Below, piece by piece: positions 32,121 through 33,464 of a DNA stretch of 64,000 nt. Source of the DNA: the human T2T-CHM13v2.0 reference genome, Homo sapiens; assembly GCF_009914755.1 (NCBI RefSeq), contig NC_060927.1. One strand, given 5' to 3'. Position 1 is the first letter of the stretch. Each line of letters opens with the position of its first letter. Below the pieces are notes generated by a model. The model saw only the letters and a program-made list of their open reading frames with translations. It searched no databases and was not told the origin of the DNA. The position numbers and the translations under genes are program-made.

Positions 32121-32186
32121 CAAACCTTTGCCCATAATTATGGCAGCAAGAAATACTTACATTTTAAATTTAAAAAGTTAGATCCA

Positions 32187-32869
32187 GCCGGGCACGGTGG
32201 CTCACACCTGAAATCCCAGCACTTTAGGAGGCCGAGGAGGGTGGATCATGAGGCCAGGAGTTTGAAACCAGCCTGGCCAACATGGTGAAACCCCATCTCT
32301 ACTAAAAATACAAAAATTAGCCAGGCATGGTGGCGGGCGCCTGTAATCCCAGCTACTCGGGAGGCTGAGGCAGGAGAATTGCTTGAACCCGGGAGGTGGA
32401 GGCGCAGTGAGTCGAGATCATGCCACTGCACTCCAGCCTGGGCAACAGACCAAGACTCTGTCTCAATAAATAAATAAATAAATAAATAAATAAATAAATA
32501 AATAAATAAAACAAAAAACAAAAAAAGAACATCTATAAAAAACCTACAGCTAGTATCATAATTAGTGATGAAAAATTGAGGCCGGGTGCAGTGGCTCACA
32601 CCTGTAATCCCAGCACTTTGGGAGGCTGAGGTGGATGGATCATGAGGTCAGGAGTTTGAGACCAGCCTGGCCAAGATGGTGAAACCCTGTCTCTACTAAA
32701 AAATACAAAAATTAGCCGGGCGCAGTGGCGGGTGCCTGTAATCCCAGCTACTTGGGAGGCTGAGGCAGGAGAATCGCTTGAACCCGGGAGGCGGAGTCTG
32801 TAGTGAGCCGAGATTGCGCCACTGCACTCTAGCCTAGGCAACAAAGCAAGACTCCGTCTCAAAAAAAGA
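32187..32869 (+). mobile_element. Composite Alu-L1M spacer-Alu bounded by a single TSD
   Basis: TSD AAAAAGTTAGATCCA at 32172-32186 and 32870-32884; spacer identical to 62261-62317. Confidence 0.9.
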
Positions 32870-33464
32870 AAAAAGTTAGATCCAATGATCTCAACTTTGA
32901 GGGAGAAAAAAATATTGCAGAAAGGAGTAAGACTGGAAAGACAAAAGAGTATTTTCAGATGGATAAAAAGATTTTTCATGTTTTCCTTTATCTTTCAAAT
33001 TATCTACAAGTTTGAAATATACCTTCATAATTATAAGTGTGTGTGTGTACATATATATACATTTGTTTTTTGAGACAGGGTCTCGATCTGTCACCCAGCC
33101 TGGAGTGCAGTGGTGCAAACATGGCTCACTGTAGCCTCAAACTCCTGGGCTCCAGCAATCCTCCCACCTCAGCCTCCCTAGTAGCTGGGTCTACAGGGGC
33201 ACGCCACCATGCCCAGCTAATTTTTAAAATTTTTTTGTAGAGATGAGGTCTTGCCATGGTATGGTGCCCAGGCTGCGTAATAGTTTAAAATAATAATTTA
33301 AAATTGAATATTTACTGCATTCTAAGCATAGTAGGTGATTCTATACATTTTTGGACTTTAATTCTCACAATAACCTTTCATTTTTCAGATGAGACATTTA
33401 ATGTCCAGAAATGTCCCCCACAGTCACAGAAACAGAAGAACAGATATTTAAAAACCTGAGTCTT

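What the first reader, a model, noticed from the sequence alone, without database searches (positions are those of the whole stretch)
32172..32884. Alu-spacer-Alu cassette copied from 30 kb away into a TSD-flanked Alu in ARF4 intron 1
Seen: 32524-32580 is identical (57/57) to 62261-62317. At the 62 kb site it is a native colinear piece of the old L1M lying between two Alus, and includes the 3' TSD of the U6atac-Alu chimera. Here the whole two-Alu unit has only one 15-bp TSD (AAAAAGTTAGATCCA, after TTT). The inner Alu parts share variants with the 62 kb Alus (CAAGACTCTGTCTC plus TAAA tail; GATGGATCA, CCAAGATGG, GGGCGCAGTGGCGGG). The outer parts do not (GAGTTTGAAACCAGCC vs GAGATGGAGACCATCC). Inference: a break in a single Alu was repaired by ectopic template switching or gene conversion from the downstream Alu pair, capturing the spacer. 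Alternative: Alu-driven 3' transduction, since the donor has no TTTT Pol III terminator until ~62624, but the outer-arm mismatch argues against it.
Basis: partly seen in the sequence, partly recalled or inferred. Interest (0 to 1): 0.8.

Follow-up and report, generated by a model that had tools for sequence, protein, structure and literature searches.

The report
Old local copy between Alu pairs
A short unique piece of an old L1, with the Alu on its right, was copied long ago from 30 kb downstream into the end of another Alu in ARF4 intron 1, most likely by DNA repair rather than by retrotransposition; it is a tidy curiosity, not a new kind of element.

Summary
The match is exact over 67 bp (32520-32586 = 62257-62323), and these are the only two identical copies in the 3.1-Gb genome. 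At 62 kb the piece is colinear with an old L1. One perfect 15-bp target-site duplication (TSD) flanks the whole 32-kb cassette.

- **Right Alus are kin.** AluR (32 kb) and Alu2 (62 kb) share a joint marker set, here called A56+G98+C145. It occurs 34 times genome-wide, and three of those lie within 30 kb here.
- **Left Alu body is not kin.** The body of AluL shows no kinship with Alu1, the donor's left Alu. Only the (TAAA)n tail is shared.
- **The event is old.** CpG sites in AluR and Alu2 decayed independently. The untouched spacer is compatible with chance (P about 0.1-0.25).
- **Switch points are poorly mapped.** The right break lies after Alu column 218 (p=0.035). The left break lies in the last bases or the tail of AluL (p=0.13). 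Taken at face value, that order does not fit a single break in one Alu.

Best reading: ancient ectopic homologous repair, meaning non-allelic gene conversion or template switching, from the downstream Alu pair. It is favoured over Alu-driven retrotransduction because the only copy lies 30 kb away in cis and because AluL is not a copy of Alu1. Primate orthologues would settle it.

The parts
32172..32186 (+). 5' copy of the 15-bp target-site duplication AAAAAGTTAGATCCA, preceded by TTT
   Evidence: 15 of 15 identical to 32870-32884
32187..32466 (+). AluL: full-length resident Alu, not derived from the donor's Alu1
   Evidence: Differs from Alu1 at 21 of 231 non-CpG sites. It lacks Alu1's states at columns 78, 88 and 163. 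In columns 164-284 Alu1 ranks 19th of 50.
32467..32526 (+). Tail of AluL: (TAAA)11, then A-C-A6-C-A7. Probably homologous to the Alu1 tail at 62227-62261, or the site of the left junction.
   Evidence: (TAAA)3 or longer occurs in the tails of 3 of 51 window Alus: AluL, Alu1 and one other. The donor has T-A6-T-A8 where this copy has C-A6-C-A7.
32525..32579 (+). 55-bp L1-derived spacer, copied from 62262-62316. It includes the right target-site copy of the U6atac-Alu1 chimera.
   Evidence: It lies inside the 67-bp exact match 32520-32586. There are only two identical copies genome-wide. The donor copy is colinear with 6 of 6 L1 relatives.
32580..32860 (+). AluR: full-length Alu, kin of donor Alu2 at least over columns 48-146. 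Its last ~65 bases are of uncertain origin.
   Evidence: It carries the joint marker set A56+G98+C145, found 34 times genome-wide, 3 of them here. The best break is after column 218, with 6/235 differences to the left and 7/54 to the right, permutation p=0.035.
32861..32869 (+). Short A-rich tail AAAAAAAGA before the 3' TSD
   Evidence: Read directly. AAAAAAAGAA also stands at 32520-32529.
32870..32884 (+). 3' copy of the 15-bp target-site duplication
61822..61947 (+). Donor locus: full-length U6atac pseudogene fused to Alu1
   Evidence: Rfam RF00619, 123 bits, model positions 1-126 of 126
61949..62261 (+). Donor Alu1 with its (TAAA)3-containing tail
62262..62316 (+). Donor spacer, a native piece of an old L1
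62317..62617 (+). Donor Alu2 with its A-rich tail. Its own target site is GAAAAATT(G/T)A, in the same L1.

Best explanation
Tens of millions of years ago, a lesion at the 3' end of a resident Alu (AluL) in ARF4 intron 1 was repaired by homologous copying from a look-alike Alu pair 29.7 kb downstream on the same strand. AluL already carried its 15-bp target-site duplication.

The copied tract began in or next to the A/TAAA-rich tail. It ran through the 55-bp L1 spacer and into Alu2. It ended either near Alu column 218 or in Alu2's A-tail. Both junctions lie in homologous sequence and in register, so two full-length Alus with a foreign spacer now sit inside one target-site duplication.

The process is non-allelic gene conversion by synthesis-dependent strand annealing, or equivalently a double Alu-guided template switch during replication.

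Shown: donor and copy, direction of copying, uniqueness of the spacer, kinship of AluR with Alu2, non-kinship of AluL with Alu1, and old age.

Inferred: a DNA rather than an RNA intermediate, and the positions of the junctions.

Three sub-variants remain open:
- (b) The recipient already held a tandem Alu pair, and a tract of roughly 300 bp was converted.
- (c) The break lay in the tail of a single Alu, and the whole of Alu2 was copied.
This fits least well.
For: - Only two identical copies of the spacer exist in 3.117 Gb, and they lie 29.7 kb apart in the same orientation. A retrocopy landing at random within 30 kb either side of its source has a chance of 1.9e-5.
- The donor copy is native to its L1.
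- AluR and Alu2 share A56+G98+C145. The strict pattern has 16 genomic matches and the relaxed pattern 34. AluR, Alu2 and a third Alu at 55.7 kb are 3 of the 34. The expected number of pairs within 30 kb is 0.011, and a triple arose in 0 of 200,000 simulations.
- Both cassette Alus are full length with no indel at a junction, so the junctions are homologous.
- AluL is not a copy of Alu1, which a read-through transcript starting at Alu1 would require.
- The literature reports gene conversion among neighbouring Alus that falls off with distance (PMC8230782, passages read). A screen of 118,489 AluY found no confirmed Alu-driven transduction (preprint 10.1101/2024.04.29.591526; abstract, introduction and part of the methods read).
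- Old age: at 19 CpG positions AluR and Alu2 show 3 both intact, 9 one decayed, 3 decayed in opposite ways and 4 decayed the same way. That is like unrelated pairs.
Against: - The mosaic signal is weak. The right break has p=0.035 with the spacer included and p=0.12 without it. The left break has p=0.125 with the spacer and p=0.97 without it.
- Among 16 comparison Alus (14 with the same markers from elsewhere in the genome, plus the third window Alu and the partner itself), Alu2 is only the 4th to 6th nearest relative of AluR. AluR is nearest to Alu2 only in the 5' part. Kinship therefore rests on spatial clustering, not on private shared mutations.
- The structure also has every outward mark of an L1-mediated insertion: a perfect TSD after TTT, an A-rich 3' end, and no TTTT in the donor before 62624.
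- AAAAAAAGAA stands on both sides of spacer+AluR (32520-32529 and 32861-32870). This could be the target site of a nested retro-insertion.
- At about 30 kb, the distance is larger than the roughly 10 kb range quoted for Alu-Alu conversion (PMC8230782).
- No outgroup sequence was available.
Confidence: 0.62

Rival explanations
1. RNA route. A Pol III read-through transcript of Alu1-spacer-Alu2, or a Pol II transcript of the long PDE12 isoform that spans the site in sense, was reverse-transcribed by L1. There are two versions. In one, a 5'-truncated copy (tail+spacer+Alu2) nested into the A-tail of resident AluL. In the other, the enzyme switched template to another Alu RNA so that one new TSD flanks the whole unit.
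For: - A perfect 15-bp TSD after TTT and an A-rich 3' end.
- No TTTT between 61946 and 62624 in the donor.
- AAAAAAAGAA on both sides of spacer+AluR.
- L1 template switching certainly happened at the donor site, as the U6atac-Alu1 chimera shows (PMC4476161, passages read).
Against: - The only copy lies 30 kb from its source, and random landing that close has a chance of 1.9e-5.
- AluL is not a copy of Alu1, so an extra truncation or template switch is needed.
- No Alu-driven transduction was confirmed among 118,489 AluY. That screen did exclude candidates whose transduced part held another Alu (preprint 10.1101/2024.04.29.591526).
- A third kin Alu at 55.7 kb on the other strand points to local DNA exchange.
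Confidence: 0.12
2. Recent short patch. AluL and AluR were an ordinary tandem pair of unrelated origin. Only the tract of 67 bp or less was inserted recently from 62 kb, through microhomology (A7 on the left, GGCCGGG on the right).
For: - Identity is perfect for 67 bp and stops abruptly at four mismatched bases on the right and at the tail differences on the left.
- Spacer 0/67 against all sites of AluR-Alu2 34/282, Fisher p=0.0009.
- Templated patches at breaks are known (PMC5110952, passages read).
Against: - It leaves AluR's rare shared marker set, and the clustering of 3 of 34 genomic copies, to chance.
- It also leaves the shared (TAAA)n tail, seen in 3 of 51 Alus, to chance.
- At non-CpG sites the contrast vanishes: 0/67 against 13/234, p=0.08. 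The chance of no change in 55-67 bp is 0.10-0.25 at the 2.5-3.3% divergence of the inner Alu part.
Confidence: 0.06
3. One break inside a single Alu was repaired by copying Alu1's 3' part, the spacer and Alu2's 5' part. The two outer arms are then halves of one original Alu.
For: - One TSD flanks the unit.
- The left outer arm differs from Alu1 at subfamily-type positions 78, 88 and 163.
- A right break after column 218 has some support, p=0.035.
Against: - The AluL body to the right of column 163 shows no kinship to Alu1: 10/102 differences and rank 19 of 50.
- It is more diverged than the right inner arm (p=0.03; p=0.009 with the spacer added).
- The best left junction, after column 268, lies beyond the best right junction at column 218. 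A single break cannot give that order without duplicating recipient sequence.
- AluL and AluR differ at 8 of 41 sites in columns 219-268.
Confidence: 0.1

Closest known systems
Non-allelic gene conversion between neighbouring Alu elements (PMC8230782 and the work it cites; passages read)
   Same: Transfer is one-way between dispersed Alus on the same chromosome. The donor is kept, the junctions lie inside Alu homology, and the recipient becomes a mosaic.
   Different: Reported cases replace Alu sequence with Alu sequence. Here a unique 55-bp non-Alu piece and most or all of a second Alu were carried along, so the recipient gained about 330-400 bp. The distance of about 30 kb exceeds the roughly 10 kb range quoted there.
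Alu/Alu-mediated rearrangement by template switching (PMC6071635; search listing and start of abstract only)
   Same: Diverged Alus serve as switch points, and chimeric Alus form in register.
   Different: Those events give deletions or duplications between the two Alus after one switch. This one needs two switches, out and back, and changes copy number only for a few hundred bases.
3' transduction by L1 and SVA, and the proposed Alu-driven transduction (preprint 10.1101/2024.04.29.591526; abstract, introduction and part of methods read)
   Same: Flanking DNA moves together with a retroelement, the TSD lies beyond the extra DNA, and the donor lacks an early terminator.
   Different: The 5' Alu of the copy is not the source Alu. 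The copy sits 30 kb from the source. That screen confirmed no Alu-driven case.
Templated sequence insertions at repaired breaks (TSIP class 2; PMC5110952, passages read)
   Same: A patch templated from elsewhere fills a break.
   Different: Class 2 patches show end-joining scars and come from distant, seemingly random places. Here both junctions are homologous and in register, and the donor is a nearby look-alike.

Membership tests
Non-allelic gene conversion / homologous ectopic repair between Alus | The donor persists and is the native site of the transferred sequence | tested here: met
   The spacer is colinear with 6 of 6 L1 relatives at 62 kb. At 32 kb it lies inside a TSD-flanked insertion.
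Non-allelic gene conversion / homologous ectopic repair between Alus | Both junctions lie in homologous sequence, in register | tested here: met
   AluL and AluR each align over the full 284 columns without a junction indel.
Non-allelic gene conversion / homologous ectopic repair between Alus | A tract of low divergence bounded by higher divergence (mosaic) | tested here: inconclusive
   Maximum chi-square test, right side: 6/235 against 7/54, p=0.035, or p=0.12 without the spacer. Left side: p=0.125 with the spacer and p=0.97 without it.
Non-allelic gene conversion / homologous ectopic repair between Alus | Donor and acceptor close together in cis | tested here: met
   29,737 bases apart on the same strand.
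Non-allelic gene conversion / homologous ectopic repair between Alus | An ancestral acceptor allele without the tract | not testable with these tools
   No primate genomes are held. Only the window's own assembly could be searched.
L1-mediated retrotransposition with Alu-driven 3' transduction | A TSD flanks the whole unit, with an A-rich 3' end | tested here: met
   15 of 15 TSD. AAAAAAAGA precedes the 3' copy.
L1-mediated retrotransposition with Alu-driven 3' transduction | No Pol III terminator between the source Alu and the end of the transduced part | tested here: met
   After 61946 the next TTTT is at 62624.
L1-mediated retrotransposition with Alu-driven 3' transduction | The 5' Alu of the copy descends from the source Alu | tested here: not met
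   AluL and Alu1 differ at 21 of 231 non-CpG sites, and the states at columns 78, 88 and 163 differ. Alu1 ranks 19th of 50 in columns 164-284.
L1-mediated retrotransposition with Alu-driven 3' transduction | The landing site is unrelated to the source site | tested here: not met
   The copy lies 30 kb from the source, against a chance of 1.9e-5.
Templated sequence insertion, end-joining class | Junctions with microhomology or untemplated bases, and no homology arms | tested here: not met
   The exact match ends inside A7 and GGCCGGG. However, the flanks on both sides are homologous repeats in register, and AluR is kin of Alu2 beyond the patch.

The most novel reading that the evidence does not exclude
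Pairs of Alus act as portable homology arms, so that unique DNA lying between them can be copied to nearby Alus without retrotransposition. This neighbourhood would then show repeated use of the route: 3 of the 34 genomic Alus with the A56+G98+C145 marker set sit within 30 kb, on both strands. One of them brought an L1 spacer along, and the recipient ended up with two Alus inside one target-site duplication. If this is general, some 'tandem Alu' arrays and some apparent Alu transductions are products of local conversion.
Probability: 0.25. Interest if true: 0.55.

Novelty: new variant of a known kind. Interest (0 to 1): 0.35.

Why it matters
If the DNA route is right, this is a clean fixed example of Alu-guided ectopic repair carrying non-Alu sequence along and adding a second Alu to a site. 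That outcome is usually credited to retrotransposition.

It bears on three practical points:
- How Alu ages and subfamilies are read from sequence.
- How candidate Alu transductions are screened. The one systematic screen I read excluded candidates containing a second Alu.
- The use of Alu insertions as homoplasy-free phylogenetic markers.

No effect on ARF4 or PDE12 is indicated. The cassette is intronic and antisense to ARF4.

Tried and rejected
- **Whole-element identity.** AluR against Alu2 is 88.6%, no higher than against unrelated window Alus at 87.9-89.2%. Raw identity is therefore uninformative.
- **"The shared right-arm variants are mere subfamily markers."** I first concluded this because 4 of 51 window Alus carry G98+C145, and the G98 21-mer has 5,656 copies. 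I withdrew it after the joint pattern proved rare and locally clustered.
- **"The spacer transfer is recent."** I first favoured this from 0/67 against 34/282. I dropped it because the contrast disappears at non-CpG sites.
- **Clustering of AluR's own 3' changes.** The test gave p=0.027, only the 5th most skewed of 51 elements, and the combination is unique to AluR. It is weak evidence.
- **Polarising the two differences between the U6atac-Alu1 target-site copies.** This failed because the six L1 relatives vary at both positions.
- **A chr1 Alu (L039/L051) identical to AluR over 80 bases.** It is 91.9% identical over 285 bases. It is a coincidence of recurrent CpG decay, not a source.
- **Nearest-neighbour test among Alus with the same markers.** It gave no private kinship signal.
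- **Supplement of PMC4476161.** Two files held nothing on U6atac or Alu, and one file could not be searched.
- **Search for the pseudogene name RNU6ATAC26P.** It returned 2 papers, both on autism expression signatures.
- **Prior description of an Alu-spacer-Alu conversion.** Searches showed none in their listings. I did not read most of the listed papers.

Full report
**Naming.** AluL is 32187-32466 and AluR is 32580-32860, both in the cassette at 32 kb. Alu1 is 61949-62226 and Alu2 is 62317-62598, both at the donor site at 62 kb. Columns are those of my alignment of the window's 51 near-full-length Alus, cut to 284 columns. Those 51 were taken from 93 BLAST matches. Subfamily names are avoided because no repeat library was at hand. 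Where I speak of 'S-like' or similar, that is recall.

**1.
- The 57-mer is identical, and the exact match runs for 67 bases, 32520-32586 = 62257-62323.
- The window's own 3.117-Gb assembly could be searched. A 75-base query gave 74 candidates, of which 40 were scored. Only the two window copies were 100% identical. The rest are old L1 relatives at 81-93% over 41-64 bases. The tool warns that its counts are lower bounds.
- At 62 kb the piece is native. In all six relatives fetched, the flank ending at 61822 and the spacer align to adjoining L1 positions. They overlap by about 11-13 bases, which is the target-site duplication of the U6atac-Alu1 insertion. The sequence after Alu2 carries the same L1 on.
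- U6atac is full length.
- The cassette at 32 kb is bounded by a perfect 15-base duplication after TTT.
- No similarity other than Alu extends beyond it. The longest alignment is 61958-62613 against 32195-32874, 85.2% over 684 columns.
- The donor has no TTTT between 61946 and 62624.

**2. What is and is not shared: the left Alus.** Every variant shared by AluL and Alu1 sits at a CpG position and is carried by 8-21 of the other 49 Alus, apart from a two-column gap shared with 16 of 49. The two Alus differ at 21 of 231 non-CpG sites, including columns 78, 88 and 163. In columns 164-284, Alu1 is only the 19th nearest of 50 to AluL. The body of AluL therefore does not descend from Alu1. Only the tail links them. 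(TAAA)3 or longer occurs in 3 of 51 tails: AluL, Alu1 and one other. Next to the spacer the donor reads T-A6-T-A8 where the copy reads C-A6-C-A7.

**3. What is and is not shared: the right Alus.** Each shared variant is common on its own:
- The 21-mer with G98 has 5,656 genomic copies.
- Of 30 such Alus sampled, 5 carry C145 and 2 carry A56 (the labels of the two right-hand columns in that output are shifted by one).

The combination, however, is rare. The strict pattern has 16 matches and the relaxed one 34. The same pattern with G at column 56 has 305 against 11 with A. Three of the 34 lie within 29.7 kb here: AluR, Alu2 and a third Alu at 55688-55967 on the other strand. Random placement predicts 0.011 pairs that close, and it gave no triple in 200,000 trials. 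AluR is therefore a local relative of Alu2.

**4. Age.** At 19 CpG positions, AluR and Alu2 show 3 both intact, 9 one decayed, 3 decayed in opposite directions and 4 decayed in the same direction. That is the pattern of unrelated pairs. Among 16 comparison Alus (14 with the same markers from elsewhere in the genome, plus the third window Alu and the partner itself), Alu2 is only the 4th to 6th nearest to AluR. The split therefore dates from when the CpGs were still intact. With commonly quoted primate rates, which I recall rather than computed, that means tens of millions of years.

The untouched spacer does not contradict this. The non-CpG divergence of the inner Alu part is 2.5-3.3%, which gives P = 0.10-0.25 for no change in 55-67 bases. 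Fisher's test of 0/67 against 13/234 gives p=0.08. A later short re-homogenisation is possible but not needed.

**5. Junctions.** A maximum chi-square scan of non-CpG differences was run on each side.
- Right side: the break falls after column 218, with 6/235 differences to the left and 7/54 to the right. Permutation p=0.035, or p=0.12 without the spacer.
- Left side: the break falls after column 268, p=0.125, or p=0.97 without the spacer.

Two of the six 'inner' differences (columns 64 and 175) are in fact CpG decays that my mask missed. The other four are clustered in Alu2 at columns 104-121.

The left junction therefore lies in the last bases or the tail of AluL. The right junction lies near column 218 or in the A-tail. 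A single break inside one Alu requires the left junction not to lie beyond the right one. The implied overlap is not a duplicate, since AluL and AluR differ at 8 of 41 sites in columns 219-268. The data fit better with either a resident tandem Alu pair that received a tract of roughly 300 bases, or a break in the tail of a single Alu followed by copying of the whole of Alu2.

**6. DNA or RNA.** The structure carries the outward marks of an L1-mediated insertion, but these belong to resident AluL under any model.

Against an RNA route:
- The only copy lies 30 kb from its source in cis, against a chance of 1.9e-5.
- AluL is not Alu1.
- A third kin Alu nearby on the opposite strand points to local exchange.
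- A screen of 118,489 AluY in this same assembly confirmed no Alu-driven transduction. It did exclude candidates containing a second Alu (preprint 10.1101/2024.04.29.591526; abstract, introduction and part of methods read).

For a DNA route: gene conversion among neighbouring Alus is documented and falls with distance, over a quoted range of about 10 kb (PMC8230782, passages). Alu-guided template switching is the accepted route for Alu/Alu rearrangements (PMC6071635, listing and start of abstract only).

RNA routes get about 0.12 and a recent short patch about 0.06.

**7. Comparison and novelty.** The event works like non-allelic gene conversion between Alus. It differs in carrying a unique spacer and most or all of a second Alu. 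I found no description of such a case in the listings of five searches, most of whose papers I did not read. It is a new variant of a known kind. It is of moderate interest to people who study mobile DNA and repair, and nothing points to an effect on the genes.

**8. Limits.**
- No outgroup sequence was available.
- The background sets are small: 51 window Alus and 16 Alus with the shared markers.
- The break tests are post hoc.
- CpG masks were partly set by eye.
- The genome pattern counts depend on exact motifs.

Noticed in passing
window 55688-55967, minus strand: A third Alu carries the same rare marker set (T48, A56, G98, C145). It lies 6.5 kb from Alu2 and 23 kb from AluR, on the opposite strand. 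With those two it makes 3 of the 34 genomic matches. This suggests further local Alu-to-Alu exchange.
   Followed up: partly
window 61810-62274: A full-length U6atac is fused head-to-tail to a full-length Alu. The pair is flanked by 13-14-base target-site copies that differ at 2 positions. A survey found only two U6atac/Alu associations in the human genome, one of them with a 14-base TSD (PMC4476161, passages read). I could not tell whether this is that locus, because one supplement file could not be searched.
   Followed up: partly
L004 (G000:C20:1458580-1461644), about locus position 1550: A related old L1 copy on another chromosome has an independent Alu inserted at the same L1 position as Alu2, right after ...GATTGA. 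This is probably a favoured cleavage site.
   Followed up: no
window 32520-32529 and 32861-32870: The 10-mer AAAAAAAGAA stands just before the spacer and just after AluR. It could be the target site of a nested insertion, the microhomology used at the left junction, or chance in A-rich tails.
   Followed up: no
window 62420-62437: Four of Alu2's non-CpG changes relative to AluR fall within 18 bases, at columns 104, 114, 117 and 121. Two of them are private to Alu2 among the 51 window Alus. This may be a multi-base mutation or a small later conversion.
   Followed up: no
L039/L051 (G000:C1:42541029-42544124): An Alu on another chromosome is identical to AluR over 80 bases, including three CpG decays, yet only 91.9% identical over 285 bases. 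It is a warning that long exact matches inside Alus arise by recurrent CpG decay.
   Followed up: yes
window 16328-16608 (minus strand), with AluR, Alu2 and 55688-55967: Four of the window's 51 Alus carry G98+C145. Only 5 of 30 G98-bearing Alus sampled elsewhere carry C145. The local excess is not fully explained by the three kin.
   Followed up: no
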